Source: Sphyrna mokarran (taxonomy: Eukaryota). From it: a DNA stretch of 64,000 nt. This document shows positions 13,495 through 62,721 of this stretch, piece by piece (the stretch's first letter is position 1; each line of letters starts with the position of its first letter). The position numbers were made by a program, and so were the translations under genes. The DNA is taken from positions 62,806,001-62,870,000 of the forward strand of contig JAGIQG010000004.1 in assembly GCA_024679065.1 (NCBI GenBank), in the 5' to 3' direction. Below the pieces are notes generated by a model. That model was not told where the DNA came from. It made no database searches and saw only the letters and a list, made by a program, of their open reading frames with translations.

Positions 13495-13543
13495 ATGCCG
13501 TCAAGTGTGATGTACTTCTCTGTCCTTGCGCTCGTTTTCACGG
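13495..13543 (+). pseudogene. Gene A candidate leader exon
   Basis: ATG gives MPSSVMYFSVLALVFT+G, hydrophobic, ~170 nt upstream of the V exon. The phase-1 donor GTTCCA is weak. Confidence 0.55.
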
Positions 13544-13709
13544 GTTCCAGTTCATTTTCTACGTGGTTTGCTTATTATTTCGCGCAATTTCCAAGCTGTA
13601 TATTAATTCATCATGTTTCCTTGTACTTGAGACAATTTAAGTAACTCAACAAACCCGTGCTTTTTATCCTACTATTGCTCTGGGTTAATTAGATTTTGAT
13701 TTTCATTAG

Positions 13710-14034
13710 GCTCTGGTCAATCGGTGGTGAAAGTAACTCAGCTACCTGCGAGTGTGAGCAAAAACAAGACGTACAAATGTGCCCTTTCATTGCTCGCTTC
13801 CTTTCTTTCAAGACGGTCCGGTTGTGAGTATACAATGGTGGAAACACGATGACAACCAACATATACGCACAGAAGAAAATGGCCAAAAAGTAACTGGATT
13901 AAAGACAATATTCAGTGGTTTTCTTCAGATCAACAATGTGATCTTGCAAGACGCAGAGGTATACTATTGCACTGTCACTCATCGAGGTAGTATTGCTGGT
14001 AATGGGATGGGCTCTAATTTATCTGTACGAGCAG
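13710..14034 (+). pseudogene. Gene A V-set (VJ-type) exon, frameshifted
   Basis: Acceptor ttttcattag; SGQSVVKVTQLPASVSK, then a +1 shift in the A5 run at ~13760-13764, then TNVPFHCSLP...IQWWK...FLQI...DAEVYYC...GNGMGSNLSVRA; donor G|GTTTGG. Paralogous to gene B exon 2. Confidence 0.85.
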
Positions 14035-14671: not shown

Positions 14672-14983
14672 TTCCACCAACTCGGCTGGAAGTTAATTCT
14701 CAGTATCCCGAAAATGACTCACCGGCGCTTCCTGCTGTTCTATACTCAACGTCTCACTTTTACCCGAAGAATATCAATTTCACTTGATACAAGGATGGCA
14801 TCAAAGCTACAGGAATGATAAAGACCATAATTGAATCCAGGACTGATGGGCTATATGAAGCTTTTAGTCGTTTGCAAGAGACGCAGTCTATCCAATTAGG
14901 AACTATGTACACCTGTCTGGTGACCCGCAGCACTCTTCACGTTTCAGCGTCCGTCACTCATATTATCACCAATCGCAATACAG
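14672..14983 (+). pseudogene. Gene A C1-set exon with premature stop
   Basis: Acceptor tttcatttcatag, donor G|GTAAGC. VPPTRL...VLYSTSHFYPKNINFT*YKDG...GLYE...YTCLVT: the B-strand Cys is Tyr (TAC 14743-14745) and the conserved Trp is TGA (14785-14787). Confidence 0.88.
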
Positions 14984-27096: not shown

Positions 27097-27117
27097 AAAA
27101 GTTAGGGGGAGGGAATA

Positions 27118-30550: not shown

Positions 30551-30649
30551 GAAGGAACAGATGTGATGACGCCTGATGCTGAACTGGATATGAATAATTT
30601 CCGGACGGCACCAAAACTAAAACATCAAGAAAGGACAGTTTATGCCCAG
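30551..30649 (+). pseudogene. Gene A cytoplasmic exon with degenerate tyrosine motifs
   Basis: Acceptor ttttatctttcaatccatgcag, phase 0: EGTDVMTPDAELDMNNFRTAPKLKHQERTVYAQ. DAEL is one base from YAEL. No GT at the expected end (CAG|GGAGAT). Confidence 0.55.
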
Positions 30650-31561: not shown

Positions 31562-31804
31562 ACTAAAACAATTCACCGGGAAAATAAGGTGACCTACGCT
31601 GCGCTAGCGAACGCAGCTCCAAAGAAAGCAGATAAGCCTAATTATAAAGAGAAAAGTACAGTTTATGATTCGCACGGAAAAGCAGAGAGCAGGCACTGGT
31701 CACACGCAAGGAGAGGACGAGTAATATTCTCATTCAACGCAGAATTCGCTGTTATTGATACTTATAGCGAAATGCGACACCATTATGCGAATACCGCGAA
31801 ATGA
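31562..31804 (+). pseudogene. Gene A terminal cytoplasmic exon with ITIM
   Basis: Acceptor tttttctaccaatctttatacag, phase 0: TKTIHRENKVTYAAL...EKSTVYDS...DTYSEM...*. VTYAAL matches the ITIM consensus (I/V/L/S)xYxx(L/V). Confidence 0.7.
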
Positions 31805-34900: not shown

Positions 34901-35032
34901 AAAGTATTTTGCATATGACTATTGCTCACTTCACTTATTAGCTATTTCCTTATTTCAACATCTGTGGAACCTCTGACTGCCCGCCCTTGCATTAAAGCCA
35001 GCATTCCCATTATTATCAATCGGTTTGCCATT

Positions 35033-35745
35033 CATAGAACATAGAACATAGAACATTACAGCACAGAACAGGCCCTTCGGCCTTCGATGTTGCGCTGACC
35101 AATATAAAAAGCAATGCACCTCCAAACTAAACCATTCCCTTCTCTTCCATATACTTATCAACTAACCTCTTAAACGCCACCAAACTTGGCGCATCTACAA
35201 CTGCTGCAGGCAGGGCATTCCACTCCCGAACCACCCTTTGGGTAAAGAACCTGCCTCTGATATCCGTCCTATAACTATCACCCTTAATTTAAAGCTGTGT
35301 CCCCTCGTGCTAGCTTTCTCCATCCTAGGAAAAAGGCTATCACTGTCCACCCTATCTAAACCTCTAATCATCTTACATGTTTCGATCAGGTCCCCTCTTA
35401 GCCTCCTCCTTTCTAACGAAAACAACCTCAAATCCCAGCCTCTCCTCATAAGACATGCCCTCCATACCAGGCAACATCCTGGTAAACCTCCTCTGTACCC
35501 TCTCCAATGCCTCCCCATCTTTCTTATAATGCGGTGACCAGAACTGCATATGGAAGAGAAGGGAATGGTTTAGTTTGGAGGGGCATTGCTTTTTATTTTG
35601 GTCGGCACAACATCGAAGGCCGAAGGGCCTGTTCTGTGCTGTATTGTTCTATGTTCTATGTTCTATGTTCTAATACTCCAAGTGCGGCCGCACTAGAGTT
35701 TTGTACAGTTGCAACATGACGTTGCGGCTCCGAAATTCAATCCCT
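35033..35745 (-). mobile_element. CR1 3' fragment (subfamily 'A') containing an oppositely oriented ~120-bp CR1 tail (35549-35670)
   Basis: ORF2 C-terminus on the minus strand, broken at gaactgca|...|taatactcc by a plus-strand tail ending (TTCTATG)3. Confidence 0.9.
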
Positions 35746-35849
35746 AATTCGATGGTCTTTCGAGGACAAGTGGGGCCGTGGAGATATTAGCCCCTTACTG
35801 CAGAAGCCCCAGAAATTCTGTAGTTCCCTGAGTCGTATTCGGGGCTTCT

Positions 35850-36180
35850 TGGCAGCACAGTCGTTAGCACTGCTGCTTCACAGCTGCAAGGACCTAGGTT
35901 CTATTCCCGGCTGGGTCAGGTCTGTGTGAAGTTTGCACATTCTCTTCGTATCTGCATGGGTTTCCTGCGGGTGCTCTAGTTTCCTCCCATAGTGTAAAGA
36001 TGTGCAGGTTAGGCTGATTAGGCATGCTAAAAAAAATATCTCCACTGTCCTGAAATGCGTAGATTAGTGGGTAAATATGTAGGGAAATGGGGATAAGGCC
36101 TGGGTGGGATTGTGGTCAGTGCAGACTCAATGGGCCGAATAGCCTCTTTCTGTACTGTAGGGTTTCTAGGATTTTATGTA
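35850..36180 (+). mobile_element. V-SINE/HE1-like SINE
   Basis: tRNA head, V-domain gtttgcacattctc...tttcctcccatag, CR1-like tail. Confidence 0.85.
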
Positions 36181-36311
36181 TCCCATCACTGATATTGGTA
36201 AAGTTTAAAGTGGAATTAAATGTTATTTTAAATCTTAAACCTATGCTTTCTTGTCACTGACTCCAAAATTAAGGGGACAAAAGCAAATTCCTTCCCTTCT
36301 ATCCTATCCAT

Positions 36312-36610
36312 GTGACACACTGGTTAGCACTGCTGGCTCACTGCGCCAGGGACACCGTTTGGGTCAGTGCCTGTATGGATTTTCCACGTTCTTCCCGCGT
36401 CTGCGTATGTTTCTCCCGAGTGCTCTCGCTTCATGCCACAGTCCAAAGATATGCGTATTATATTGATTAGCCATGCTAAATCGCCCCTTTGTGCCTGAAG
36501 GTTAACTCGGGTAAATGCATGGGGTCATAGCGTTTGGGTAGGATTGTGATCTTTGCAGACCCGATGGCCTCAATAGCCTCCTTCTACACTCTAGGATTCT
36601 ATGATTCTAT
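36312..36610 (+). mobile_element. V-SINE/HE1-like SINE
   Basis: Same structure as the 35850 copy but more diverged; ends ctaggattctatgattctat. Confidence 0.8.
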
Positions 36611-37560
36611 ACCCTTCTCAAATTTGCATACCTCAATCAAATCCTGAATGAACCTCCTCTGCTCCACGGAGAATAATATCAGCCTAACTAGTCTTTAATT
36701 AAGTTTAAACCCTCCAGTCTATGCAACATCCTGGTGCCTATCACCTGCATCCTCTCTTTGAGATCACATCTCTCCTATAGCATGGCGCCCAGAAGAGCAC
36801 ACAACATTCTAGCAGTGACCGAACGACTGTTTGATAGAGCGTCATCATAACCTTCTTATTATTATGTTCCATGCCACGGTTAAAAGAGGCAATTAATCGA
36901 TCAGCCCCTTCTTGTCTCCAGACCCGATGCATATCCATCCGTTAAGTGGGAAAAAAAGTGGAACTAAATGATGTGTTGCCTTCTTGTGACTGACTCTGTA
37001 TTTGCAAAGCTCTGTCCGTCTAACCAGGTCATCTCTACCGCCGTGTAATCTAAGATTTCCTTCCTCACTACTTGCCACACCATTACTTCATGTGCCCTTT
37101 GCCAACTTACTGATTACGGAATATTCCCGTCTAGATCATTGAATTACAAAAAGAAAAATAGGATCCAGCACCAATCCCTGTGTTACATCACTGGATACAG
37201 ACTTCCGGTCACGAAAATAATATTCGATTCCCACCGTCTGATTTCTGCCACGAAGTCAATTTTGATTTCCAACTTGCCAAATTGCCTTGGATTTCATGGA
37301 CTCTTACTTCTTTGATCATTTTTCTTGTATGCGACATTGTGAAACGCCTTAGTGATGTCCGTGTAGAGTATATTAACTGCCCTGCCCCCATCGACACATT
37401 CACTTACCACCTCGAAACATGCAATCATCTTGATAGACGCGATTTACCGTTAACAAACGGCAAATCACCAGGCCCTTCTTGGCTAACCCCCGCCCCCCCC
37501 CCCCCCCCAAATAGAGATTAATTATGTCCCTCATATTTTTTCTAAATAATTTCCTGCCAT
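36611..37560 (-). mobile_element. Old CR1 RT fragment
   Basis: Minus-strand LYQTVVRSLLECCVLFWAPCYRRD and VRVHEIQGNLASW. Confidence 0.7.
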
Positions 37561-37979
37561 GGTATTAAATTCTCTGACATGTAATGGCTTGCGATTAGCA
37601 ACTGAAAACCAGATATTCAGCAAAACTAGTTACCTGTCTTATCGTGTAGGCAGACATAATACTGGTATGCCTAATCCCACTGCCATTTACATATTGCCAG
37701 TTGTCCCTGGCCCCTGCTCTCATCTCCACCACCTCGGCGCCCCCATGTTGCCCCTATGCCCATTGGAATCAAGTTTCCGACTAGCTGTTTGGTTGCTCAC
37801 CCAAACCCTTTTTTCATTTCTTCATTTTCCACTCAGTAACATTCTTCTTATCGTATTTGGCAGAGAAAAAAAGAAAATCGAATTCCAAAATGTCTCCACA
37901 GCCCTGATACAATTATCTATTGACTGCCACTAACTAAAATTGTGAACAATGTTTATGGTCCAGGAGGTCAATGCACAAA

Positions 37980-39585
37980 TAGTAGATAAGGAGGATAAGG
38001 AGGATGAAGTAGATAAGGAGGATGTGCTCGATATTCTTGAGGACATGAAGTTAGATAAGTCCCCTGGGCCGGACGGAATTTACCCTAGGATTCTCTGGGA
38101 GGCAAGAGAGGCTCTGATCTTCAGGTCGTCATTGGTTACAGGTATAGTGCCGGAAGACTGGAGGATAGCGAATGTGGTCCCATTGTTCAAGAAGGGGAAT
38201 AGAGACTTTCCTGGGAATTATAGACTGGTGAGTCTTACTTCTGTTGTGGGCAAAGTATTGGAGAGAATTATTAGGGATAGGATTTATAGTTATTTAGAGA
38301 GAAACAAATTGATTGGGGATAGTCAGCATGGTTTTGTGAAGGGTAGGTCGTGCCTTACTAACCTTATTGAGTTTTTTGAAAAAGTGACCAAAGAGGTGGA
38401 TGGGGGTAAGGCAGTTGATGTGGTATATATGGACTTTAGTAAGGCGTTCGATAAGGTGCCCCCTGGAAGGCTTCTGCAGAAAATGCAGATGTATGGGATT
38501 GAGGGTGATTTAGCTAATTGGATTAGGAATTGGCTAGCTGATAGAAGACAGAGGGTGGTGGTTGTGGGAAATTATTCATCATAGAGTTCGGTTACAAGTG
38601 GTGTACCTCAGGGATGTGTTTTGGGGCCCCTGCTGTTTGTAATTTTTATAAATGATCTGGATGAGGATACTGAAGGATGGATTAGTAAATTTGCAGATGA
38701 CACCAAAGTCGGAGGAGTGGTAGATAGTGAAGAGGGGTGTAATAGTTTGCAGAGAGACTTGGACAAGTTGCAGAGCTGGGCCGAGAGGTGGCAAATGGAG
38801 TTTAATGCGGGGAAGTGTGAGGTAATTCACTTTGGCAGGAATAACAAATGTGTAGAGTATAGGGCTAATGGTAGAACTCTTAGTAGTGTTGATGAACAGA
38901 GGGATCTTGGTGTATATGTGCATAGATCCCTGAAAGTTGGCAATCAAGTCGATAAGGTTGTTAAGAAGGCATACGGAGTCTTAGCTTTTATAGGTAGGGG
39001 GATTGAATTTCGGAGCCGCAACGTCATGTTGCAACTGTACAAAACTCTAGTGCGGCCGCACTTGGAGTATTGTGTGCAGTTCTGGTCCCCGCATTATAAG
39101 AAACATGTGGAGGCATTGAAGAGGGTACAGAGGAGGTTTACCAGGATGTTGCCTGGTATGGAGGGCAGGTCTCATGAAGAGAGGCTGAGGGATTTGAGGT
39201 TGTTTTTGTTAGATGGAGGCGGCTAAGAGGAGACCTTTTTGAAACATATAAGATGATTAGAGGTTTAGATAGGGTGGACAGTGACAGCCTTTTTCCTTGG
39301 ATGGTGAAAGCTAGCACGAGGGGACATAGCTTTAAATTAAGGGGTGATAGTTATAGGACGGATGTCAGAGGTAGGTTCTTTACCCAGAGGGTGGTAAGGG
39401 TATGGAATGCCCTGCCTGCTGCAGTTGTAGATGCGCCAAGTTTGGTGGCGTTTAAGAGGTTAGTAGATAAGTTTATGGATGAAAAGGGAATGGTTTAGGT
39501 TAGAGGGTCATTGCTTTTTCTTAATTGGTCGGCGCAACATCGAAGGCCGAAGGGCCTGTTCTGCGCTGTAATGTTCTATGTTCTA
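37980..39585 (+). mobile_element. 5'-truncated CR1 (subfamily 'A'), RT region
   Basis: ORFs 37949, 38621 and 39253 carry RT motifs; tail at 39585; micro-duplications gtagataaggaggat at the 5' junction. Confidence 0.95.
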
Positions 39586-40211
39586 AATTGTTGCGAGCTC
39601 AGATGTGTGTGTAACCTTACTCCAACGCCGAAGAAAGGATATCCAAAAGAAAGCTCATACGATTGTTATGAAAGGAGCTTCAATAATCTTTCCTTCAGTC
39701 AGAGAACGGCCATGTTTAGTAATTTATTTATGTTTCATATACGTATTACGCAAATCACAGCATGAGTGACGAAGGAAAATGTGTCAACGTCATGTTGATT
39801 TTGGCTTGGTTAGTGCAATTTCCTATCTCCATGAGGAAAAAGTTACACCTGCTTTTACTGACGGTTCAGCGCGCGCACGTCTTTTACAAGCTGGTGTGAA
39901 AGCCATGGATAGTGACTTTTAATTTCTTGTCCGTTCCTCCACAATTATCGAGGAAGTACCAGGTCGTCTCCGTCGCGGGGAATTTTGTGCCGCTCTGGCT
40001 ACAAATAATTATGAGAGCTAAAATAAGCAAGTTATGCTTATTATGATATGATAAACAAGTCTGATTATTATGTTATGATAAATAAGTCTGATTTTCGCTT
40101 CATGTTATAAAATCCCTACTCGATACTTCTTGTATAATTGTGAAGTATTTCGTTATTGATGAATTAGCAGAAAGGAAACAAATTGACATATTGGAACGTT
40201 GTCTTCAATAC

Positions 40212-41169
40212 TTTATTCAATCTCAAAACCATGTTATAACGCATGCATCTTCACTAATAATTTAGCTGGTTGTGTTTGCATGGGGACCCCGCGGAACACT
40301 AAATCAACCTATTGAACGTTAGTTTTAACTGCACAATCAAAGTAATTGAACCAGGAGCATTCGCAGTTGCTGAATTTTGGAGGTTGGACACATTAGAAAA
40401 AAATCGTTTACAAGGCGATGATCGTAGGTACTACAAACCACATTGCGAGGGCATTTTTGATATTTTGAATCATTAATTCTTTAATTTAGCTCATTAATTA
40501 TGTAACAAACTTTTTTTAAGAAAAGAGCCACACCAACTGACAAAATACCAGTTTATGTTGACAATTATTCCAAGCAGTGATATTACATGTCACAAAGACC
40601 GTCACAAAATATTCATATTGCAGGCGACCCAAAAATTAGTGCATCAAATTTGATTATGTACGAGACGGAAACACGATTTTTTTTAAAAAATTCAGTAAGG
40701 AAAAAGTTATTAGAGTAGGCGGGAAAGTGAAGTTAGATATTATCATGTCAGATCAGTTCTGATGTAACCAGGGAAGGCTAGATGCGCCGAATGCAGTATT
40801 TCTGCCCATGTGTTTTAAAATCTAAAACGAAAATCAGGTAATCTTCAAGCTCAGGAATTAAGTATTAATATTTTAAAAAGCTGCCAGGAATTAACAGTTT
40901 CATGGTAACCAGGCCCGTGTTAAGTGCGACATTGGACTATCCCCACAAAAGAAATCAAAGGGATCATTGGACAAGGCAGCAATGTAGTGACTGGACCCAC
41001 TCCATCCAACGAGATAAGCAACTTTCTGTTATATGTAATCGGTTTTCGGGTTAGTCATATATTCCCTCGATCGCGAGGCAGATGTTTCAGTCTTGACATT
41101 TGCTCCTTAGTAAGAAATTGTGCCTCCAATGTCACAAGCGAATGAAAGACCACACAATCTTATCAATAT
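40212..41169 (-). other. Candidate non-coding terminal (3'UTR) exon of gene B
   Basis: The strong donor right after the stop (42334) requires a downstream exon. A good acceptor ttttttctgtcgtttcgttgatttag ends at 41170, and there is an AATAAA on the minus strand at 40217-40212. The end point is uncertain. Confidence 0.35.
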
Positions 41170-41977
41170 CTAAATCAACGAAACGACAGAAAAAATAGTA
41201 TTGGATATGTTAAATCGTTTGAATAAGTTTGACATTTTAACCAGTGCTACATTTGTTATCTTGTTTTGTAACCAGTAGCATTCTCGCAAATAATTTTCAC
41301 ATTGTCAGTCATTAAATTGTCACCTTTATATCAGCATATGGCGTCACATTCTGGATTTTAATTATTAAGACACTTTTCCGCCGTAGATGTTCTAATTTTG
41401 AATGCCCACAATATTAGCCTTTGTAAAAAAATACTTCAAGTAATAAAATTAAATTAATATTTGTAGGTTTTGAGGCTTATACGAAAAGAATAAACTTTAA
41501 ATAACTCTACGCCATATCCATAAATGAACACAATACGGTGATGAATTTAAATTGTTAGAAGAGAAGCTGTAGCAGATAAGTAAATTGTTGTTCTCAGCTT
41601 TTTACTTTAATTAGTTAAAACAACACCTTTATGATGTTTTTTTTTCTTTTTAGGAAGCTATGAAATTGATTAAAATATGTGTAAAGTGGACGATTCTTCC
41701 AAAAGTATTTTCCAAAATAGTACAGCAATTTTCACTGCTCCTCATATATTTCGACATTGTTCCCCACAACTACTTATTTATATAAGCACCTTGCTGTCAT
41801 GTTATGAAGAATACTTCACAATTAAGATAAATTTCTCCTTTAAGACAACATGACACTCTTTGATAGCTCAGATAAATTTAGAGTTGAAGCTTTGGCTTTA
41901 ATGACTAGCAATGAACAATGCACGAGCATGTTCGTATGCAACATTTTTTTAAGAACGCATCCGTTTGTAACATTGTA

Positions 41978-42102
41978 GATAGTAAACTCGCTATTTGATA
42001 GTAAGCGAGTTTACTATCAAATAAATCGGTTGGATTTAAAACTGGAGTTGCCAGACTTCTTACTGTGTTTACCCCAGTCCAACGCCGGCATCTCTACATC
42101 AC
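41978..42102 (+). repeat. Perfect hairpin abutting a repeat terminus (Penelope-like end, tentative)
   Basis: 15-bp perfect inverted repeat at 41978-41992 / 42004-42018, followed by aaataaatcggttggatttaaaactgg...ccagtccaacgccggcatctc. Confidence 0.5.
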
Positions 42103-42114
42103 ATCTGCTTGGGC

Positions 42115-42282
42115 ACACAGAAGCAGAATTTAACTGGGCTAATTCACGTAATCAACACGACTTTCAGGCTGCTAGGTGAAACCAGAGGACCTGGCGGAAA
42201 CCCACGCGTACACAAGGACAATGCGCGGACTCCACACAGACGGTGACCACCGGAGCCCCAGGCACTGTGAGAAAGCACCATG
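42115..42282 (-). mobile_element. Degenerate V-SINE
   Basis: Minus-strand tgtgtggagtccgcgcattgtccttgtgtacgcgtgggtttcc. Confidence 0.65.
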
Positions 42283-42336
42283 GGTGAAACGCGCAAATGT
42301 TCTATCCCATACTCTGTAATAATGTTTTTCTTACCT

Positions 42337-42443
42337 TTAAAATGGGCACCTTTTGAAATGGAGCACAATGATAATTGCCAGGATGAGAATCACGATGAAT
42401 CCGAACACAAAACGAGGAATCAGAGCAACGTAGAGCCTATGAA
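42337..42443 (-). CDS. Gene B exon 4: transmembrane segment containing Arg, short tail and stop
   Basis: Acceptor ttctgtatgttag, phase 1: VHRLYVALIPRFVFGFIVILILAIIIVLHFKRCPF*. TAA at 42339-42337 is followed by AG|GTAAGA. Joined CDS is 58+321+300+107 = 786 nt (261 aa). Confidence 0.85.
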
Positions 42444-43029
42444 CTAACATACAGAAATCATAGGAATCGTCAGTTCATTGTAAGTGGCATGTTTCGGCTA
42501 CAATAAAATGAGACAGACAAATTTATAATTTCAATCTGTATGTGAATTTTGAATCAGGAAGGGAATAAAATGTTAATGTTCCGCCATATGTTCCCATTGC
42601 ATTAAAAACGGGAGCGTTGAGTTAACATAGGACAATGGAAGGATGAAGAAATCAGTCCACATGAAATCATCTACGCTCCGCGATTTGTCAAGTTCAGCAA
42701 ATCCAAGCAAATTGCAATTATGCCTCAAAGGTATATCTTATTTATATCTAACAGAGTTAATAATTTGCTAGTTACCTAATTACAAGATCACTTTTTTGCA
42801 CTTGAAATATTCGCCTGACCCCCGCATCACACCGCACAACCTCGTGTAATATTTTTCACTTTATCTTGAAAAGTACAGCTATAGAAGACTTTGTTTTTGG
42901 TAGTAACATTAATGTTCATGGAACTAAGGTCTCAGTAGACTTGGTGGAATTAGCTGTTTTTCTTTGTTTTGCGCAATTTATGCGCATAGTTGAAAAAATG
43001 ATTTCAATTTTTATGTTTTATTTTCAGCA

Positions 43030-44790
43030 TATGGATCAAATTATAGGCTTCAAGAACTTTACTAAGAATGGTAAATTGTGTCTGCAAAATGAGGCATGGT
43101 TAGTAAGTTTGCGGATGACACCAAGATTGGTGGCACAGTTGACAGTTAATGCAAACTAACCTCCCATCCATTGACTCTGTCTACACTTCTCGCTGCCTCG
43201 GCAAAGCAGCCAGTATAATTAAGGACCCCGCGCACCCTGCACATTTTCTCTTCCACTTTCTTCTATTGGGAAAAAAAATACATTGATTTCAGGTCACTTA
43301 CCAACCGTCTCAAAAACAGTTTCCGCCCTGCTGCTGCCAGGCTTTTGAATGGACTTATCTTGCACTAAGTTGATCTTTCTTTACACCCTAGCTATGACTG
43401 TAAGACTGAATTCCGTACTCTGTTTTCCTTCTATATGAAGGGTATGATTTATCTGTATAGGGCGCAAGAAATAATTGTCACATGTTAATACATGTGATAA
43501 TAATAAATCAAGTCAGATCAAATCAAAAAAGTTATATGGGTTTGCAATCGAATATTGATCAATTGGACCAATCGGCTGATGATTAGTGGATGGAGTTTTA
43601 TTTAAATAAATGTGAGGTGATGCATTTTAGTAGATCAGCCGAGGGCAGGACCTATTCAGTTTATAGTAGAGCGTTGGGGAGAGATATAGAACGAAGAGAT
43701 CTAGGAGTACAGGTTCATAGTTCCTTCAAAATGGAATCACAGGTGGACAGAGTGATGAAGAAGGCATTCGGCATTTTAGGTTTCATTGGTCAGAATATTG
43801 AATGCAAGAGTTGGACATCTTGTTTACGTTGTACGTGATATTAGTAAGACCACACTTGGGATACTGTGTACAGCTCTGTATATACTACCATAGAAATCAT
43901 ATTAATAAACTAGGAAGACTGTATAAAAAATTTACGAGGATGCTATCGGGATATGATGGATTTAGCTATAAGGAGAGGTTTGATAGAATGAGATTTATAT
44001 ATTTCTTTTCACCTGGAGGAAGGAGGCTTAAGGGTGATCTTACAGAGGTCCATAAGATGATGAGGGACATAGATCAGCTGGATAGTTAACATATTTTCGC
44101 CAAAACAGTGGAGCCTAAAACTAGAGGCTGTACGTTAAAGCTGAGAGAGAAGAGTCACAAAAGTGTCCAGAGGGTGGTGAATATCAAGCCGATCGATGTA
44201 GTAGTGAAGTCAAGTACAATTTTGTCTTTTGAAAAGCATTTAGAAAGTTACATTGGTAAGGCATATAGATACGTATGATCCAAATGCGGGCAATCGAGAA
44301 AAGAGCGACACGGGCAAGCTGTGCCGAAGTGCCTGTTTCCATGTTGTAACCCTCTGTTACTTTGTGACTCTACCGGGATTTGATGGTTTGAGGTACAAGG
44401 AGAGGTTGGATTGATTGGGACTCTTTTCCCGGGAGCACCTGAGACATCCGGGTGATTTATAGGGGCCTATAAAATATTAAGCGGAATAGATAAGGCAGAT
44501 AATCAACACCATTCCCCAAGGTAGGGGAGTCTAAAACAGGAGGTCATAAGTTTAAAATGAGAGCGGAGAGATGCAAAGGGATCTAGAGGTACATTTCTTT
44601 CACTCAGTGCGTGTCTGGAACGAGCTGTCAGATGCAGTTGCGTGGTGGTACGGTTTTGTCTTTTAAGACGCAGTTAGATAGTTCGACAGCTACATGTGTA
44701 AGCTGGGTATAGAGGGATATGGGCCAAACGTGGGAACTTGGGACTAGGTTAGGTGTGAAAGGCAAGGGCAGCATGGACAATTTCCAGGTG
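43030..44790 (+). mobile_element. Old CR1 fragments (two 3' ends) with a nested Rex1/Babar fragment (43150-43527)
   Basis: SKFADDTKIGG at ~43100 is interrupted by a Rex1 C-terminus and AATCA tail, resumes with MEFYLNKCEVMHF; a second CR1 end lies at 44370-44790. Confidence 0.75.
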
Positions 44791-45054
44791 AAAATCCTTG
44801 CGTTATCTATTCACCTACAGTTCATGAAGTGCAAGATAATCACAGAGATGCGAATTAAGGCTTCAACTGGATTTACTTAACGTCCTAAACTGGCGATTTT
44901 GGAATTTGGAGGCATAATAACAAATGTCCTACTTTATCCGATAAACAGACTTAACAAGTTAGCTTTGAGACGTCCTAACAGAAAAACATGATTTGCGTTC
45001 TGGTTTTAGAGCATTCTAATGCGATAGGCAAGATTATCTTATATAAACATAGGC

Positions 45055-46150
45055 GTAGAAAACATAAATAAGAGGAATAGGAATAGGCCATTCGGCACTT
45101 CAAACCTCTATCTCCATTCATTCTGAGCATGGTATTTCCTTCAAGTCAGTAACCTGATCTGCCCTTCCCCATATCCTTTGATCCCATTATCCATAAAAGC
45201 TAAATAACTCCTTCCTAAAATCGTGCAATATTTTTCGCTTCAACTGCTTTCTCTGGTAGCGTGTTGCAGAGGCTTGCCGCTCTCGAGGTAAAGAAACGTC
45301 GCCTCAAATGAGTGTTTTTCTTTTTAACCCCGTATCTTTAGACTATGCCCCATGTTTCTGGACTCCCCCAACATTAAACTCCACTTTCTCTACCATAATA
45401 TTTGTCCTTTTAGAATTTTCAATGTTTCTATAAGGTTCGTCCTGCTCATTATTTTGTACTCGAGCGAGCAAACTCTTAGCCGAATAAATCTCTCCTCATT
45501 ACTGAATCCCTCTATCCCGGCAATAAGTCTAGCAAACTCCTTCTGTAGCAAGAACTCCGTTCCTCAGATAAAGAGACAAAAGCTGAATACAGTATTCAAG
45601 GCGTTGAATACTGTATATACAGGAGTCCTGTATATTTACCGCAAAACATGCTTGCTTCTCTAATGGCATTCTCTATGTGGCCATAATGCAATTTGTCTTG
45701 TTTACTGTCTGATGCACATACATGCTTATCTAGAATGATTAATGTACTATTTCAGCCAAATTTCGTTGTACATTCCCCTTTCAGTCTAAAACCTCTCAGA
45801 TCATATTTTGTCTTCCAGCTTTTGCTACCACACCACCCTGAACCGCGATGCATTTGCCCACTCAATCATTTTTTTCCAAATCTTTGCATCCCCATCAAAA
45901 CTCGTCCTCCTACCCAGTTTTGTATCATCTGCAAAATTCGAGATATTTCATTTAGTTCCATAATTTAAATCGTCCATATATGTTGTGAATATCTGAATTC
46001 CCAGCACCGATCCCTCCTGTGCTCCACTAGTCAATGCCTGCCTTTCGGGAAAAATAAGATCCATCTATTCTTTGTTTCCTGTACGCCAACCAGTTTTCTA
46101 TTCATCTCAATATACAGTCCCCAATTCGAAATACTTTTATTTTGAACGAG
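45055..46150 (-). mobile_element. Old CR1 3' fragment
   Basis: Tail-like taggccattcggc and reverse-strand FADDTK (tttgtatcatctgcaaaat). Confidence 0.65.
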
Positions 46151-46758
46151 GTAATAAGCATAAGAAAATAAATGTCAACATTGAATAGCTATGGTCGACC
46201 TTTCTTGGATAGAAGGAGAAGTCGGCTAAGGAATCATGAACCATAGAATAGAAGGACATTTCTGTATTACAGCTACTGTTCACGGCTTTCGGGAATATTT
46301 AAAGAGGAAGGATTGATTAAGGACTGCAGCTGTAGAGCAAACAGATGCAATTTCTACAAGCAAATGTTATTTTCAATGGACAAAGGAACAGGGTTATTTC
46401 CTTTGACAAGTAATTTGATGCAGGTAGAATATTGGGCACAAAGGACCGGTGTTTTCGAAAATTATTCAGGGAAGTGGAACGACAGAACTGGAAACAGAAA
46501 ATTCTGAGTCTAGATGGGCTTCTACCATTTAGCAATGGTTTTAATGAGTACTCCAACAACAACGGCCGTGTGCAGAGTTGAAATCTGTCAGTGTGAGAAG
46601 AATGATAGTTGAATTATAATAAGTGCACGATACCCCATGAGACGCCTTATATGTAAAGGCATTACTTCCAGTACCGATGAATCATGCTGTCTAGCCTCAT
46701 TAATAATCTGTAAATAAATAGTCTTAATAATACTGGTTTGCTCTACTATTTGTCTCAC

Positions 46759-47058
46759 CTTTCCAACTTAGAACATTGAAGGTGGCATTAACCGGAATAG
46801 TAAGCGTGCGATGAGTTACTTGGCACGTTACGTAACGGACAGTTCGAGTGACAACCAAATAGCTGATAAGTTCATAAAGTCCTTCGGAATTTAGATATTT
46901 AAATGTGTTTATCCCAGTTGCAATACGAAAGCCATCCTTATACCACGTTACATTGATATCATCCGGGTAAAAAGCCGCCGTTTTACAAGAAATATTTAGA
47001 AATTCGGATGTATTATTCGCAAGTAACTCGGACTTAATGCTCAACGGATTTGGAGGAA
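46759..47058 (-). CDS. Gene B exon 3: C1-set Ig domain
   Basis: Acceptor ttttattttgcag, donor G|GTGAGA, 300 nt, phase 1-1, open. Translation VPPNPLSI...NISCKTAAFYPDDINVTWYKDG...GLYELISYL...VTCQVTHRTL carries the C1 signatures CxxxxFYPxxIxVxW and CxVxH. Confidence 0.93.
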
Positions 47059-48576
47059 CTGCAAAATAAAACAAAGCAGACGTATTACAACGACTGTGTT
47101 CATCTTTGCTGTGTAACCAACATTTTGTCCAGTCATTAGATTTGCACTGACCTTAAATTGTCTGTGATACTTTACACTAGCGTTCACTACGATTAGAGAG
47201 CAAATATTGCACCCTTTAAAAGGTATGGAGAAACAGTGTGAGGAATGCAAACAGCTGTGCATCTCTGTTATGCATTAAGTTCAATACAAAGAAAACATAT
47301 AACTTTTTTCTAAACCCAAGGAATGTTCGCTGCTGTATCCAATTCAATGGAAACACACAAAGTCAAATTGCGAGCAAATAAATGCATTATTAAGGAAAAG
47401 TGACGAATGAGACAGAACAAAATCGAACATTTGCATTGTACTAATATCTTCCTAAATTGCTAAAAATAATTAAAATCTGAATGAATGTACGATCGGTATA
47501 TTAATCGTTGCAAGAGAGACTGCAGAATGAAAATATTCTTTGCTTGAGTTCTGAATTGCTTGCACGGATTTAGTAGTTACGATTGAATTAAGTGTAACGC
47601 ACTAATGCTTTTCCACTGCGGTCAATCTTGGAGAGCTACAATTTAACCGCAACTGCTGGAGAAAACGCTCTCTGCGAGAGAAAAAAAAATCCCAATATCC
47701 TTGTTTGACTGTTCATAGCTGGTGGATCAAATTTGCTCCCCCATTAACAAAGGGAAGTCTTATTATGCAACGCCGTCAAATGTAAAACGAGATCCACTCT
47801 TAAGTGATGAAGATTCACAAGGGACTAATCGATAGAAGAGGAAACAACAATTAGCATTTTAATCCAGGGCACTGAAAATAGAATTATAACTAATTCTCCA
47901 AATTAATGTTTGAGATATTCCTGGATAAAATATGCCATAGTTGTCTGATTTTCGGTACACTGTTGGATTTTATTTTTCGTTACTGAAAGCCCGGTGTGCA
48001 ATGCAGTCTATAAAGTATCGAGGGGATATTTTCAAGAACAATAGTTTTCCTTCCGAATGGCTAGATTTTCATGTTGGCCGATGCAGGGTTGGAAGCCAAG
48101 TAGTAGTTCTATCACACGACATGTCCCAATGCATTTTATTAACTTCAATTGAAATACAAATCACAAGAGCGTAAAAGGTGCTACAAATTCTTTATATTCC
48201 ACTTTGGCGGGAAGTCAAGATTTATGGCAACTTCTTCATCAATCGAATAGCAATGAATTTGAATTTCAGTTCTCACACACAACCCTGAATGAATTGAATT
48301 GTTATCACAGTGGAAATCGCTTTATATCGGCTTAATATTTTGTTGTTTCTACTATCCCACCCACACACACACCTTTGACTTTTTATGTTATTTTGCAGCA
48401 CAGCATTAAAACTTGGAGTATAATTTTCAGTTGCAATGCAAAGAGCGGATCGATCGCAAATGTTTCTCATCAGAGGTATTGAAAACAATAAGCAATGAAC
48501 ATATTCATTTAATACGTATTCGATTTCACTTGTTATGAATTATAAAATTAATGATGTGTGACCGATTTTCGCTTAC

Positions 48577-48897
48577 CGTAGACAACAAGCTTCGACCCAG
48601 TTCCATTTGCAAAGAGGCGATCCCGATGTTTTACTCCGCAGTAATAGACCCCTGAGTCCCCGGCGTAGAGCTTCAGGAGCTGAAGAGAGGCTTCGCCTTT
48701 CTTCAAAAGACGAGTTACTTTTCTGCTGTCATTTCGTGACTGTAGAAAGTCAGTATCATCCAGTTTCCACCAATATATATTCACATTCGAAATGTCATTA
48801 AAAAGAGGAAATGCGCAATAAAAGGTAACGTTTTCACCTGCTAGCCGGTGAGCACTTTCGGGCGCTTGGGACACTTTTACCTGACCATTAGCAACAT
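48577..48897 (-). CDS. Gene B exon 2: V-set Ig domain with germline-encoded J-like G strand (VJ-type)
   Basis: Acceptor ttcttcctcacag, donor G|GTAAGC, 321 nt, open. Translation VKVSQAP...NVTFYC...IYWWK...ASLQL...DSGVYYC...FANGTGSKLVVY has B-strand Cys, C-strand Trp, DxxxYxC and GxGSxLxV. Confidence 0.93.
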
Positions 48898-49084
48898 CTG
48901 TGAGGAAGAAATGTAAACAATAAAAATCATCTATAGCACGAAAAAAAAGGGAAAAAAAAAGAAAGATTTTGTGCCGATCGGAGAGATGAGGCTTAGCAAG
49001 GGTTTGGGGAGGGGGGAAGGTGTTCGGTTGGAAGGGAAGGTATGTTCGGAGGGGGAGTGGGATGGCAAGGTGTCAAATACATAC

Positions 49085-49142
49085 CTGCTTGAATAATGAC
49101 GAGAACATTTACATATAAATGCAAAACAGCGTCCAGAAGCAT
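49085..49142 (-). CDS. Gene B exon 1: signal peptide of a VJ-C1 Ig-superfamily receptor
   Basis: ATG at 49142 gives MLLDAVLHLYVNVLVIIQA+G, then the phase-1 donor G|GTATGT. 58 nt; hydrophobic leader. Confidence 0.85.
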
Positions 49143-49574
49143 TTCCAACAATAGAAACTATCAGTTCGCCTCTCGGTGAACCTTAAGCCTAGCTTGTTCC
49201 GAAACAGCATACACAGTTAACTCGCCAAGTTGAGTCCACGTGCTGTCCGTGTAGTGAATGAGGCAAGGCATCAGATAAGGGAACGGTTAGTCCTGAGCAT
49301 AGTACGTAGTCAGCACATTTGAATAATTACTCGTAAGTAACCGCAAAGATTTGCTTCTGAGCTGATTAACCTAATGGTCGACGTGGAAAACGTGATCGAA
49401 ATGGATAATTAAACTGATATTCATAATCAAATATAAGTGGCTATGAAATTGAAAATATTACTTCAGCACTGAATTATATTTTAAATTAGTTCAGCGGGTT
49501 CAACATCTTTGCTCAAGTGAAGTATGTGATAAATAAAAATTGGTGTGCATTCATTAAACAAATTGCCTCGGGAA

Positions 49575-52132: not shown

Positions 52133-52667
52133 ATAGAACATAGAACATAGAACATTACAGCACAGAACAGGCCCTTCGGCCTTCGATGTTGTGCCGACCA
52201 AAATAAAAAGCAATGCCCCTCCAAACTAAACCATTCCCTTCTCTTCCATATACTTATCAATTAACCTCTTAAACGCCACCAAACTTGGCGCATCTACGAC
52301 AGCTGCAGGCAGGGCATTCCATTCCCTAATCACTCTTTGAGTAAAGAACCTACCTCTGATATCCGTCCTATAACTCATACCCCTTAATTTAAAGCTGTGT
52401 CCCCTCGTGCTAGCTTTCTCCATCCTAGGAAAAAGGCTATCACTGTCCACCCTATCTAAACCTCTAATCATCTTATATGCTTCAATAAGATCCCCTCTTA
52501 GCCGCCTCCTTTCTAACGAAAACAACCTCAAATCCTTCAACCTCTCTTCATAGGACCTGCCCTCCATACCAGGCAACATCCTGGTAAACCTCCTCTGTAC
52601 CCTCTCCAATGCCTCCACATCTTTCTTATAATGTGGGGACCAGAACTGCACACAATACTCCAAGTGC
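52133..52667 (-). mobile_element. CR1 3' end (subfamily 'A')
   Basis: 147-aa ORF2 C-terminus plus tail. Confidence 0.92.
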
Positions 52668-53149
52668 ATGTAACTGATAGTTCAGGGAAAGGGCAGCCAG
52701 TCAATGCGACATGTTTGAATTAGCAAAGCAATGTATAAGATGCTTATCAAGAGCAGAAGCTGAGGCCTCGTGGAGCTAACACAATGTATTAGCGTGAAGT
52801 AATGATAGGATGACAAAAGGAAACATAACATTTCTATGTCTTTGATGAAGTAGGGCCAGGATCAGTAAACAGAATTTAGCTACTTGCAACATATTTAATC
52901 ATTTGGACAAAAACCAAGAGCAACCTGACTGATGTAAAGTTAGAGGGCAATATAACAAACAAGAAATGAACAAAACTGGAATAAGTGGTTTAGTGAAGGC
53001 CAGCAAGGTGAAAAGTGAAGCATAATGTAAGCAATTATGTGGTTATCTTCTTTGGTCGTAATAATATGACTTTTTTTTTAGAAGAAAAGCTTAAAGTTTC
53101 AAACTTTAATGTTCAGAAATATTTGGTGGTACTTGAGTAATGAGTGTAG

Positions 53150-53550
53150 AAAGTTAACCTAGAGATCACTCACAACACTTGCATAGTATTTGAAACTGAC
53201 ATGAGCTTTAGTCTTCATATCTCCATGCGTGTTAAGACCATTCAATTCCACTTCCACAATGTCACTGGACTTCACATCGATCACCGGAGTACGATTTTTG
53301 ATTCAGTCATTCCCACATTCACTACCTCTTGAATGGTCTATTCTGGAAGATTGCACTCAAATCTTTTCCATTATACTTCGATAAACTAAAAGGCATCCAA
53401 ACTTGTTCTCCTTGTGCTTCCATGCACCATCTTCTGTTCACATTTCACAACTGTGTTGACTGGTGTACAATATCTGCACCACAAGCAACCTTGTAGTTTG
53501 AAATTCGCAACCTTGCTTCCCAATCTTCCAATGGTTTAACGGTTCCACTA
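53150..53550 (+). mobile_element. Old L2-like LINE fragment
   Basis: Degenerate similarity by eye to the L2 RT C-terminal region (...TFTTS..., ...IQ.CS). Confidence 0.35.
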
Positions 53551-53967
53551 TTTGCAATATTGTCCAGTATCGCAAATTGTTAAAATAATTATGTTTATGC
53601 AACTAGAATACTCGAGGAAAAATAAATATAAAAATGGACAGAAAGAATTTCTCCCAACGTGGACAAAAAAGAATGTAACTAAAGCAAATGTTGCTTTTGA
53701 GTTGTGACAATTTAATAATACGAAACAAGGGAATGACAAAGACTTGTAACATGTGTTTGTAACTGTCTCTAAGTTAGGAGACAAAGCAATTGTAGAACAT
53801 TAAGAAAATAAAGAATGGAAAGAGCTTCAGAAAATTCATAACATTGATTGCAAAAAGTAAATGCTCAGTATGTTAGTAACCCCTAGTCCACATCCTGATG
53901 AGTTGAATCCTAATTTATTTTCTTAATGTCTGGTAGAATTGACTGCCGTAGATAGAGGAGATACTAA

Positions 53968-55650
53968 AACATAGAACACAGAATATAGAACACTACAGCA
54001 CGAACAGTCCCTTCGGCCCACAAGTTGTGCCGATCATATCAGTATCTACCAGGCCATACAAATATCTGTAACTCCCAATCCCATTAAATCCCATGTACTC
54101 ATCCAGAAGTCTCTTAAAAGACCCCAGCCAGTTCGTCTCTAGCACCACTGACGGCAGCCAATTCCATTCACTCACCACCCTCTGAGTGAAAAATTTACCT
54201 CTGACATCTCCTCTGTACTTGCTCCCCAGCACCTTAAACCTGTGTCCTCTCGTAGCGACTATTTCAGCCCTGGGAAATAGCCTCCGAAAATCCACCCTAC
54301 CTATTCCTGTCAAGGTCTTATAAATCTTTATCAGGTCGCCTCTCAACCTTCGTCTCTCCAGTGAGAAGAGACCTAGCTCCCTCAACCTATCTGCATAAGG
54401 CATGTCTCCCAATCCAGGCCACATCCTTGCAAATCTCTTTTGCACTCTTTCGATAGCTTCCACATCCTTCCTATAGTGAGGCGAGCAGAACTGCACACAG
54501 TGCTCCAAGTGGGGTCTGACAAGGGTCTTATAAAGTTGCAGCACTACCTCCCGACTCCTAAACTCAATCCCTCGATTAATGAAGGCAAGTAAACCATATG
54601 CTTTCTTGACCACATCCTCCACTTGCGGGGCCAATTTATGAGTCCTATGGACCCGGACCCCAAGATCCTTCTGATCCTCAGCACTGCTAAGACTCCTACC
54701 CTTGATATTATACTCCTTCATCCTATTGGTCCTGCCAAAATGGACCACCATACATTTATTCGCATTGAAGTCCTTCTGCCACTTCTCCGCCCTGTCTTGC
54801 ATCATATCTATATCTCGCTGCAACTTCTGACATCCCTCCAGACACAACACCACCAACATTCATATCGTCGACTAACTTACTAACCCATCCCTCCACTTCC
54901 TCATCCAGGTCATTTATGAAAATGACAAACAGCAAGGGTTCTAGAACAGATCTCTGGGGCACTCCACTGGTAACTGACCTCCATGCAGAAAAAGACCCAT
55001 TCACAACCACTCTCTGCCTTCTGCAGGCAAGCCAGTTCTGGATCCACAAGGCCAAAGCCCCTTGGATCCATGCCCTCTCAACCTTCTCAAGAAGTCTTGC
55101 ATGGGGACCTTATCAAATGTCTTGCTGAAAGCCATGTAAACCACATCCAACTGCTTTTCCTTCGTCAATGTGTTCAGTCACATTTTCAATGAACTCAACG
55201 AGGCTTGTAAGGCACAAACTGCCCTTAACAAAGACGTGTTGACTATTTCCAATCATATTGAATTTCTCTAAATGCTCATAAAACCTGTCCCTCAGAATCC
55301 TCTCCATCAGCCTACCAACCATTAAGGTCAGACTCACTGGTCAGTAATTCCCTGGGCTACACCTGTTCCCTTCCTTAAAAATAGGCACCACATCCACAAT
55401 CCTCCAATCTCCCGGAACCTCTCCCATCTCCAGTCTCCATCGAAGATGCAAAGATCATCGCCAAGGTCTCTGCAATCACTTCCCTCGCCTCCCACAGTAA
55501 CCTGGGGCACATCCCATCCGGACTCGGCGACTTATCTACCTTGATGGAATTTAACAATTCCAACACATCCTCTTTCTTAATGTCCACATACTCAATCTTT
55601 TCAGTTTGCTGCAATCCTGCAGTACAACCTCCCAGATCACTTTCCAGTAC
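53968..55650 (-). mobile_element. 5'-truncated CR1 (subfamily 'B'-like)
   Basis: ORFs 53993, 54756, 55113 and 55375 carry RT motifs; tail at 53968. Confidence 0.93.
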
Positions 55651-55689
55651 TGTTTTTAATTTTGTACAATACAGAGTTCTTGAAAAAGA

Positions 55690-62609: not shown

Positions 62610-62720
62610 TAATGGGATTGGGGGTTATAGATAGGCCTGGGAGGTAGGGGTTTGATCGGAGCAACTTGTGGGCCGAAGGATCTATTTGTGCTGTAGTGTT
62701 TTATTTTGTATGTTCTATGT
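62610..62720 (+). mobile_element. Short CR1 3' tail
   Basis: aatgggattgggggttatagatag...ggccgaagg...ttctatgtt. Confidence 0.8.
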
Positions 62721-62721
62721 T

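What the first reader, a model, noticed from the sequence alone, without database searches (positions are those of the whole stretch)
42337..49142. Intact 261-aa activating-type receptor (L-VJ-C1-TM[Arg]-short tail)
Seen: four exons with canonical GT-AG sites join in frame without stops. The TM exon lies ~4.3 kb from C1 and is absent from the ORF track in the correct frame. The TM LYVALIP-R-FVFGFIVILILAIIIVL has Arg toward its outer end, and the tail HFKRCPF has no Tyr motif. About 8 N-x-S/T sequons are present, with no spare Cys in the ectodomain. Established: an outer-leaflet TM Arg is how NKp30, NKp46, LILRA and GPVI recruit FcR-gamma/CD3-zeta, whereas SIRP-beta1 uses a central Lys with DAP12. 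Inference: an FcR-gamma/CD3-zeta-coupled receptor with a SIRP- or TCR-like ectodomain.
Basis: partly seen in the sequence, partly recalled or inferred. Interest (0 to 1): 0.8.

Follow-up and report, generated by a model that had tools for sequence, protein, structure and literature searches.

The report
Shark non-rearranging paired immune receptor
This is an intact shark gene for a surface protein built like one chain of an antibody or T-cell receptor but without gene rearrangement; it is likely the activating member of a shark-and-ray family of paired on/off immune receptors, and it lies tail-to-tail with a broken copy of the inhibitory type.

Summary
Observation confirmed. Four GT-AG exons join to 786 nt, 261 aa: split leader, single-exon VJ, one C1, TM with Arg237, 7-residue Tyr-free tail. 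Predicted orthologues in six named sharks use the same TM exon; five keep the Arg, one has Gln. The gene belongs to an elasmobranch VJ-C1 family (59 TM-bearing clusters) with two TM classes: Arg plus short tail, and uncharged plus long ITIM tail. A broken ITIM-type paralogue lies tail-to-tail at 13.5-31.7 kb. Most likely it is an activating receptor that recruits FcR-gamma or CD3-zeta through the Arg; this is inferred, with no RNA or binding data. It fails defining tests for SIRP (one C1), TCR/Ig (no RSS, no pairing residues), UrIg and B7-H6, and the white-shark orthologue appears to lie off the MHC chromosome that holds NCR3. No held paper describes the family, but the main shark NCR3 paper could not be read. 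The Arg/short-tail link is strong in raw counts but not significant after phylogenetic control.

The parts
49085..49142 (-). Leader exon (19 codons + 1 nt); the leader is completed by about 5 residues of the next exon (split leader), cleavage predicted before Gln25
   Evidence: Sequence; orthologues P0004, P0005, P0006, P0119 have a like leader (9/16, 9/19, 7/19, 11/17 identical); cleavage site inferred from small residues at -3/-1, no SignalP run
48577..48897 (-). Single-exon VJ domain, Cys47-Cys106 (59 apart), G-strand GxG motif preceded by an Asn sequon (N117)
   Evidence: Pfam V-set; 95/106 identical to Mustelus P0001; model pLDDT 88
46759..47058 (-). C1-set domain exon, Cys151-Cys205
   Evidence: Pfam C1-set 43.4 bits; 87/99 identical to P0001
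42337..42443 (-). Stalk, TM (Arg237, then 17 uncharged residues 238-254), 7-residue Tyr-free tail and stop
   Evidence: 26/31 identical to P0001, unique best match in the window
42329..42336 (-). Splice donor 2 nt after the stop codon; probably leads to a last exon that is now untranslated (not located)
   Evidence: Sequence; lamniform and orectolobiform orthologues read on past this point; search for the last exon in 31800-42334 found nothing clear
13495..13543 (+). Tentative leader exon of a broken ITIM-type paralogue
   Evidence: Best match to the P0028 leader (36 vs 32 next; weak)
13710..14034 (+). VJ exon of the paralogue, 325 nt, frameshifted near 13757
   Evidence: (63.5 bits)
14672..14983 (+). 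C1 exon of the paralogue; B-strand Cys replaced by Tyr (14743-14745), TGA at the C-strand Trp (14785-14787)
   Evidence: 75.3 bits
23748..23873 (+). Uncharged-class TM exon of the paralogue, with a 19-bp tandem duplication (23749-23785) and no GT at the expected donor
   Evidence: (65 vs 40 next)
30551..30649 (+). Cytoplasmic exon of the paralogue; GG where homologues splice
   Evidence: weak match to P0007; closer likeness to the P0047 tail printed, judged by eye
31562..31666 (+). Last cytoplasmic exon of the paralogue with an ITIM (VTYAAL, 31589-31606)
   Evidence: (E 5e-8 to P0007)

Best explanation
The gene has an intact frame for a germline-encoded type I membrane protein (VJ-C1-TM-short tail) and is likely the activating member of an elasmobranch paired-receptor family, predicted to signal by docking an FcR-gamma or CD3-zeta dimer on its transmembrane Arg237. 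Shown: the exon structure and open frame; orthologues in three shark orders; ITIM-tailed paralogues, one of them broken in this window; two TM classes in the family. Inferred: expression on leukocytes; action as a monomer (glycan site at the J-motif Phe/Trp position, polar C1 face, no spare Cys); ligand binding by the short V domain; Arg-Asp assembly with the adaptor, ITAM phosphorylation and Syk/ZAP-70 signalling, opposed by ITIM paralogues with like ectodomains. The ligand is unknown; the one-to-one conservation of this member suggests a conserved host ligand more than a fast-changing pathogen one (inference).
For: Arg at this site in 5 of 6 named orthologues. In the model of the catshark orthologue the TM helix starts at 244 and the Arg is its 4th residue, matching the position-3 Arg of FcalphaRI and the rule that FcR-gamma partners carry an N-terminal TM Arg while type I DAP12 partners carry a central Lys (PMC1440944, passages); NKp30 and NKp46 use a TM Arg with zeta/FcR-gamma (PMC6514059, passages). 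Of 59 family clusters with a detectable TM, 12 share the pattern [R/Q]-x16-[D/E/V]-[H/Y] (10 R, 2 Q); most others have Gly or another uncharged residue at the aligned place. By a fixed rule, 15 Arg-bearing members have a median tail of 18 aa against 80 aa in 44 others (p 3e-5) and ITIM-like motifs in 3 of 15 against 25 of 44 (p 0.018). A few members of the other TM class also show Arg at or next to the Gly site and have tails of 10-35 aa without ITIM (P0015, P0040, P0049, P0061, P0088). The Arg-class TM sits on C1 domains that do not form one clade (7 changes; AU p 2e-44), the mosaic expected of paired receptors. An ITIM-type paralogue is in the same window.
Against: No transcript or binding data. 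The Chiloscyllium orthologue P0005 and the Arg-class member P0077 have Gln instead of Arg. After phylogenetic control the Arg/tail link is not significant: 10 independent pairs, median p 0.45 (any ITIM), 0.125 (tail of 60 aa or less), 0.22 (fewer than 2 ITIMs). 19 of 44 non-Arg members also lack an ITIM, 3 of 15 Arg members have one, and the rule counted an ITIM-type protein (P0009) as Arg-bearing and missed P0015. The 17 uncharged residues after the Arg plus His-Phe could span the membrane with the Arg at the interface. The acidic residue 17 places after the Arg, present in 10 of 12 Arg-class members, is Leu here and Val in catsharks. All homologues are gene predictions. I found no held paper documenting shark FcR-gamma; a review states only that CD3 chains are annotated or cloned in sharks (PMC6795676, passage).
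Confidence: 0.6

Rival explanations
1. A non-signalling surface ligand or decoy (B7-H6-like role): the Arg only anchors the helix at the membrane surface and the protein is bound by another receptor.
For: Gln in 1 of 6 orthologues; tail length varies from about 3 to 19 aa among orthologues; one orthologue per species in species-tree order, unlike fast-turnover activating receptors; NCBI's automatic name for two orthologues is 'NCR3 ligand 1-like'; best phmmer hits of the V domain are B7-family CD276 and PD-L1.
Against: The V has a J-type GxG motif and a Cys spacing of 59 against 72-73 in B7-H6/tapasin-like proteins, with 22-26% identity to them; the same TM pattern recurs on unrelated ectodomains (P0022); paralogues carry ITIMs.
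Confidence: 0.2
2. It is one of the already published shark NCR3 (NKp30) family subtypes, carrying a C1 domain and lying outside the MHC; mechanism as in the best explanation, novelty much lower.
For: Single VJ exon, TM Arg and short tail are the NKp30 signature (PMC6514059); eight nurse shark NCR3 accessions exist (MT914154-914161, PMC12227049) that I could not compare; I recall they were called highly divergent.
Against: The five white-shark genes labelled NCR3 are on chr19, whose gene list ends at 115.6 Mb (PMC10751288 supplement), while orthologue P0006 lies on a 193.5-Mb contig; NKp30 is described with one Ig domain.
Confidence: 0.2
3. An invariant TCR- or light-chain-like chain that pairs with a second V-C1 chain and signals through CD3.
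For: L-VJ-C1-TM layout with split leader; a full-length profile and model match light chains and TCR chains; TCR-alpha also uses an N-terminal TM Arg with zeta (recalled).
Against: No interchain Cys; no second basic TM residue; Asn sequon at the J-motif Phe/Trp place (27 of 60 scored family V domains); no Gln after the C-strand Trp; Lys after the C1 B-strand Cys where a light chain has Leu (alignment; polar E/K/T/Q/N/R in 66 of 71 family C1 domains). That these positions form the pairing faces is recalled.
Confidence: 0.07
4. A decaying gene: frame still open but silent or mis-spliced, with a tail cut by a frameshift.
For: The stop lies 2 nt before a strong donor and other orders read on; the neighbouring paralogue is dead; the V branch to the window is longer than to Mustelus (0.097 vs 0.007, quick tree).
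Against: All splice sites and core Cys/Trp are intact; Mustelus ends at the same residue and both catsharks two residues earlier, so the short tail is old and not an assembly slip; 88-90% identity to Mustelus in V and C1.
Confidence: 0.07

Closest known systems
NKp30 / NCR3 (including shark MHC-linked NCR3 genes)
   Same: Non-rearranging single-exon VJ, TM Arg, short tail, predicted zeta/FcR-gamma coupling
   Different: Extra C1 domain; white-shark orthologue apparently not on the MHC chromosome; 19% identity to human NKp30 at Foldseek rank 38, not standing out from other V domains
SIRP family (SIRP-alpha ITIM / SIRP-beta1 DAP12)
   Same: VJ plus C1 ectodomain; paired inhibitory and activating members; NCBI names many ITIM paralogues 'SIRP-alpha-like'
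   Different: One C1 instead of two; outer Arg instead of central Lys; a true SIRP-like protein (P0142, E 1e-52 to SIRP-alpha) aligns to this V over only 37 aa
FcR-gamma-coupled LRC receptors (FcalphaRI, NKp46, GPVI, LILRA, chicken CHIR-A)
   Same: Arg near the N-terminus of the TM, short tail, ITIM counterparts; the acidic residue 17 places after the Arg in most Arg-class members resembles their TM end (recalled, not tested)
   Different: Their ectodomains are C2-type; this one is VJ-C1
UrIg / UrIg2 (elasmobranch non-rearranging Ig-like genes)
   Same: Single-exon VJ, split leader, C1 domain, sharks and rays
   Different: One C1, no interchain Cys, TM with Arg, paired multigene family, apparently neither in the MHC nor in the AgRC (white-shark chr19 and chr27)
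TCR-alpha / Ig light chain
   Same: L-VJ-C1 architecture; TM Arg and very short tail as in TCR-alpha (recalled)
   Different: No RSS or V/J split, shorter V, no pairing residues, no interchain Cys
PRARP and Xenopus VJ-C1 genes (Fu 2019, Ohta 2019; recalled and as cited in PMC10751288)
   Same: Non-rearranging VJ-C1 membrane proteins
   Different: Reported from bony vertebrates; no named bony-vertebrate protein came near this family or 68 (best 70 bits against 249-399 for elasmobranch members); not compared directly

Membership tests
FcR-gamma/zeta-coupled activating member of a paired receptor family (works-like) | [quoted passage not shown] | tested here: met
   Arg237; 4th residue of the TM helix in the orthologue model
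FcR-gamma/zeta-coupled activating member of a paired receptor family (works-like) | Short tail without Tyr motifs | tested here: met
   7 residues, no Tyr; short in all 6 orthologues
FcR-gamma/zeta-coupled activating member of a paired receptor family (works-like) | Linked ITIM-bearing paralogues with like ectodomains | tested here: met
   Broken paralogue in the window; P0009 shares the contig length of P0005, P0010 that of P0014
FcR-gamma/zeta-coupled activating member of a paired receptor family (works-like) | Arg and short tail go together across independent lineages | tested here: inconclusive
   Raw p 3e-5 to 0.018; independent pairs median p 0.125-0.45
FcR-gamma/zeta-coupled activating member of a paired receptor family (works-like) | Physical, Arg-dependent association with the adaptor | not testable with these tools
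NCR3/NKp30 | Single-exon VJ domain and TM Arg | tested here: met
NCR3/NKp30 | One Ig domain only (as in human NKp30) | tested here: not met
   C1 exon present; definition from PMC6514059
NCR3/NKp30 | Location in the MHC class III region | tested here: not met
   Indirect, white shark only: P0006 on a 193.5-Mb contig vs chr19 gene list ending at 115.6 Mb; the window shows no marker gene
NCR3/NKp30 | V domain groups with NKp30 or the nurse shark NCR3 sequences | tested here: inconclusive
   NKp30 at Foldseek rank 38, 19% identity; nurse shark sequences not available
SIRP | V-C1-C1 ectodomain | tested here: not met
   Only one C1 between V and TM in six-frame profile scans; orthologues also have one
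SIRP | Activating member with a central TM Lys | tested here: not met
   No charged residue in 238-254
SIRP | Sequence affinity to SIRP above other Ig proteins | tested here: inconclusive
   Family profile vs SIRP-alpha 91.5 bits, among antibody chains and UrIg2 at 70-118; V 29% to P0150
SIRP | Synteny with the SIRP locus | not testable with these tools
   No genome held
TCR / Ig (rearranging or germline-joined) | RSS-flanked V and J segments | tested here: not met
   One 3-mismatch hit each for 12- and 23-RSS, at chance level (0.66 and 0.84 expected) and away from the V exon
TCR / Ig (rearranging or germline-joined) | Interchain Cys and V-V / C-C pairing residues | tested here: not met
   role of the positions recalled
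UrIg / UrIg2 | Three or more C1 domains, disulfide-linked homodimer | tested here: not met
   One C1, no spare Cys; definition from PMC12227049
B7-H6 (NCR3LG1) / tapasin-like V-C1 | Long B7-type V domain | tested here: not met
   Cys spacing 59 vs 72-73 and 22-26% identity to P0160, P0113, P0169; P0160 typed
PRARP / tetrapod VJ-C1 genes | Orthology by tree and synteny | not tested

The most novel reading that the evidence does not exclude
Sharks and rays keep a large, undescribed cluster of non-rearranging two-domain VJ-C1 membrane receptors in activating and inhibitory pairs, outside the MHC and the Ig/TCR complex, and this gene is a conserved activating member that signals through zeta/FcR-gamma by a TM Arg: a living model of the membrane-bound VJ-C1 precursor of the T-cell receptor, and a candidate for the missing shark NK-cell receptor system, whose Arg-type TM exon is shuffled between ectodomains and shared with a second, multi-V receptor family.
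Probability: 0.15. Interest if true: 0.8.

Novelty: new variant of a known kind. Interest (0 to 1): 0.5.

Why it matters
Non-rearranging VJ-C1 genes are sought as relatives of the exon that the RAG transposon split; PMC12227049 (Fig. 2 legend) posits a two-domain VJ-C1 precursor. This family has that layout in membrane form, with on/off pairs. It offers cloneable candidates for shark innate or NK-like receptors, now hidden under misleading automatic names (tapasin-related, Ig lambda, NCR3 ligand, SIRP-alpha, TCR-beta), and a direct test of whether Arg-based FcR-gamma/zeta coupling predates the bony vertebrates. The signalling logic itself is textbook, and the orthologues are already predicted in public annotation.

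Tried and rejected
No whole genome is held, so synteny and dN/dS could not be done. No RNA holder was listed for 46700-49200; no reads were laid. The cluster-member look-up could not be made, so most of P0013-P0160 have no species. A two-copy complex prediction of the P0004 ectodomain gave no verdict (0.11 against a mark of 0.32). Assembly-slip idea for the early stop (one extra T in the T run): rejected because Mustelus ends at the same residue. A stalk mini-exon like the extra 10 residues of the catsharks: none found in the 4,315-nt intron. Downstream tail exon: none found. Further V or C1 exons: only 2 V and 2 C1 in the window. The TM exon had no PDB sequence match at E 10. Fold searches gave only the generic Ig fold: top Z 14.7-13.8 (rmsd 1.7-2.5, 92-102 aligned) shared by NCAM, VNAR, CD79b and Fv chains; VNARs led Foldseek by a hair; light chains for the whole model with rmsd 8-13. 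Human NKp30, SIRP and B7-H6 were not among the 51 phmmer hits of the V domain at E 0.001, which excludes nothing. P0022 did not hit NKp30 at E 1e-5, so I could not call it NCR3. ESM Atlas gave only generic V-C1 clusters. Earlier findings: none. Kinlein 2021, Ohta 2019 and Dornburg and Yoder 2022 are not held; the elephant shark supplement gave no hits for adaptor or receptor names.
Full report
1. Observation. They give 786 nt, 261 residues and a stop. Pfam calls exon 2 V-set and exon 3 C1-set above the curated cut-offs. The eight sequons, the four ectodomain Cys and the Tyr-free tail are as described. The weak point was the 4.3-kb jump from C1 to the TM exon. A search with the V exon returned 8 proteins among 142 candidates; six are orthologues from Mustelus asterias, Cetorhinus maximus, Scyliorhinus torazame, S. 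canicula, Chiloscyllium plagiosum and Carcharodon carcharias. All six continue into a homologue of this TM exon; four do so directly after C1, the two catsharks after 10 extra residues. Their ends match 42443-42337 far better than any other place in the window. These are gene predictions; I saw no reads. By 90% (V) and 88% (C1) identity to Mustelus the window is probably from a carcharhiniform shark (inference).

2. The tail. A strong donor follows the stop by 2 nt. Lamniform and orectolobiform orthologues read on for 5-9 more residues without an ITIM, Mustelus stops at the same residue as the window and the catsharks two residues earlier. The very short tail is therefore a carcharhiniform trait, and no inhibitory tail is hidden behind an assembly error. 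A stop so close to a last junction would not be expected to trigger decay (established rule, recalled); the last exon was not found.

3. Surroundings. Profile scans of all six frames find two V and two C1 exons in the window. The second pair belongs to a + strand paralogue (13.5-31.7 kb), convergent with the finding, with an uncharged-class TM exon and tail exons with an ITIM. It is broken in at least five places: V frameshift, C1 Cys-to-Tyr and Trp-to-stop, a 19-bp duplication and a lost donor in the TM exon, a lost donor in a tail exon. The rest of the long ORFs are reverse-transcriptase-like repeat pieces (read by eye).

4. The family. A profile of 12 proteins found 169 clusters at E 1e-30 or better among 1.84 billion representatives; the best 150 were listed. 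Of the 160 proteins then held I kept those of at most 520 aa with V score 75 or more or C1 score 65 or more and a detectable TM: 59; longer proteins, generic Ig proteins and models without TM were dropped, and P0161-P0169 came later and are not in the counts. Named members are from sharks of five orders plus Mobula and Leucoraja; within a species they share one contig length, which points to one chromosome. The best named non-elasmobranch hit scored 70 bits against 249-399; that search uses a word index and the unnamed clusters have no species, so the range is not closed. Two TM classes stand out: 12 of 59 have [R/Q]-x16-[D/E/V]-[H/Y], and most others have a Gly-rich uncharged start. Heptranchias P0164 has the Arg class too, so it is older than the split of the two shark superorders. 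Arg goes with short tails (median 18 vs 80 aa; ITIM-like in 3 of 15 vs 25 of 44; tail of 60 aa or less in 14 of 15 vs 14 of 43). With kinship controlled the trend points the same way (6.4 vs 1.0 pairs on average for tail length) but is not significant (median p 0.125; 0.45 and 0.22 for the two ITIM measures); the tail-length cut was chosen after the first result. In the C1 tree the window gene and its six orthologues form one clade (100/99) in species order; the quick V tree agrees with weak support (80). The Arg-class TM is spread over several C1 clades among ITIM members, and one clade is rejected (AU p 2e-44, 13 rows vs 65, about 100 columns; test run after seeing the tree). This suggests that ectodomain and TM exons have been recombined. 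The same Arg-x16-Glu TM ends a six-V protein of another family (P0022) whose relatives carry ITIMs (P0071, P0103); these give the nearest outside matches to the V domain among 16 proteins compared (31-37%).

5. Ectodomain. The V model is confident (pLDDT 88). The Cys spacing is 59 (38 of 58 scored family V domains; 54-60 in all), against 60-66 in SIRP-like and 72-73 in B7-H6-like proteins: a short V, close in length to shark VNAR (alignment ranges). Fold matches are generic. The place of the J-motif Phe/Trp is an Asn sequon (N117; 27 of 60 scored family members), the C1 residue after the B-strand Cys is Lys where a light chain has Leu, and there is no interchain Cys. From recalled knowledge of Fab and TCR interfaces this argues for a monomer. 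No RSS above chance.

6. Mechanism. Shown: anatomy, orthology, paired paralogues. From the literature: FcR-gamma partners carry an Arg in the N-terminal TM segment and DAP12 partners of type I a central Lys (PMC1440944); activating paired receptors have short tails and a basic TM residue (PMC3601082); NKp30 and NKp46 use Arg with zeta/FcR-gamma (PMC6514059). In the orthologue model the Arg is the 4th residue of the TM helix. Inferred: ligand binding by V, clustering, Arg-Asp coupling to an FcR-gamma or zeta dimer, ITAM signalling, balanced by ITIM paralogues. I put this at 0.6. Against it: Gln in one orthologue, the non-significant independent-pairs tests, loss of the acidic residue at +17 in this gene, and no direct evidence in hand for shark FcR-gamma. 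Rivals: ligand or decoy 0.2; dimeric TCR-like chain 0.07; decaying gene 0.07. Separately, 0.2 that it is a published shark NCR3 subtype.

7. Comparison. It works like NKp30 or an LRC activating receptor and is organised like SIRP, but it fails a defining test for each family (see Membership tests). White-shark NCR3 genes lie at 101.9-102.3 Mb of chr19, whose list ends at 115.6 Mb, and the Ig/TCR complex with UrIg2 is on chr27; the orthologue's contig is 193.5 Mb. Chr27 is excluded only on the assumption that chromosomes are numbered by size.

8. Novelty. Nine searches of the held library (judged from listings and abstract starts) showed no description of a paired VJ-C1 receptor family in sharks. 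The library lacks most subscription papers, among them Kinlein 2021 (shark NCR3), Ohta 2019 (VJ-C1 genes) and Dornburg and Yoder 2022, which I know only from recall and citation; they and their supplements may cover these genes. What I saw: PMC12227049, abstract, parts 1-3 of 8, passages, supplement search, Table S1 part 1 of 2; PMC10751288, passages, section 11, supplement searches, parts 6-7 of 98; PMC1440944, PMC3601082, PMC6514059, PMC6795676, PMC11599192, passages; PMC3964593, supplement search only.

Noticed in passing
window 13495-31666 (+): Broken ITIM-type paralogue, tail-to-tail with the finding; the activating-type gene is intact while its inhibitory neighbour is dead. A small exon expected between its TM and first tail exon was not located.
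   Followed up: yes
P0022, P0050, P0071, P0103 (unnamed library): A second paired family with 3-6 tandem V domains; P0022 ends in the same Arg-x16-Glu TM, P0071 and P0103 in ITIM tails. Could be shark NCR3-like genes; species unknown.
   Followed up: partly
P0005 (Chiloscyllium plagiosum), P0077: Gln at the Arg site: natural loss-of-coupling candidates.
   Followed up: no
P0015, P0040, P0049, P0061, P0088: Members of the uncharged TM class with Arg at or next to the usual Gly site and short tails without ITIM: possible separate origins of activating forms (P0061 has a near-identical ectodomain to ITIM-bearing P0016).
   Followed up: partly
P0003, P0004 (Scyliorhinus): Ten extra stalk residues between C1 and TM, and a fifth ectodomain Cys, both absent here.
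   Followed up: partly
PMC10751288 supplement, reedfish chr12, 0.3-12.5 Mb: A cluster with the same mix of automatic names (SIRP-alpha-like, tapasin-related, NCR3LG1-like); may or may not be a bony-fish counterpart.
   Followed up: no
window 6200-9500, 17900-20000, 26400-30100, 35100-39500, 52200-55800, 59600-63900: Many reverse-transcriptase and endonuclease-like pieces of LINE (CR1-type, recalled) repeats fill the introns and spacers.
   Followed up: no
P0001, P0002, P0014: The public models have wrong-looking N-termini (no leader, in P0014 a repeat-derived stretch); the window's leader agrees with P0004-P0006 and P0119.
   Followed up: no
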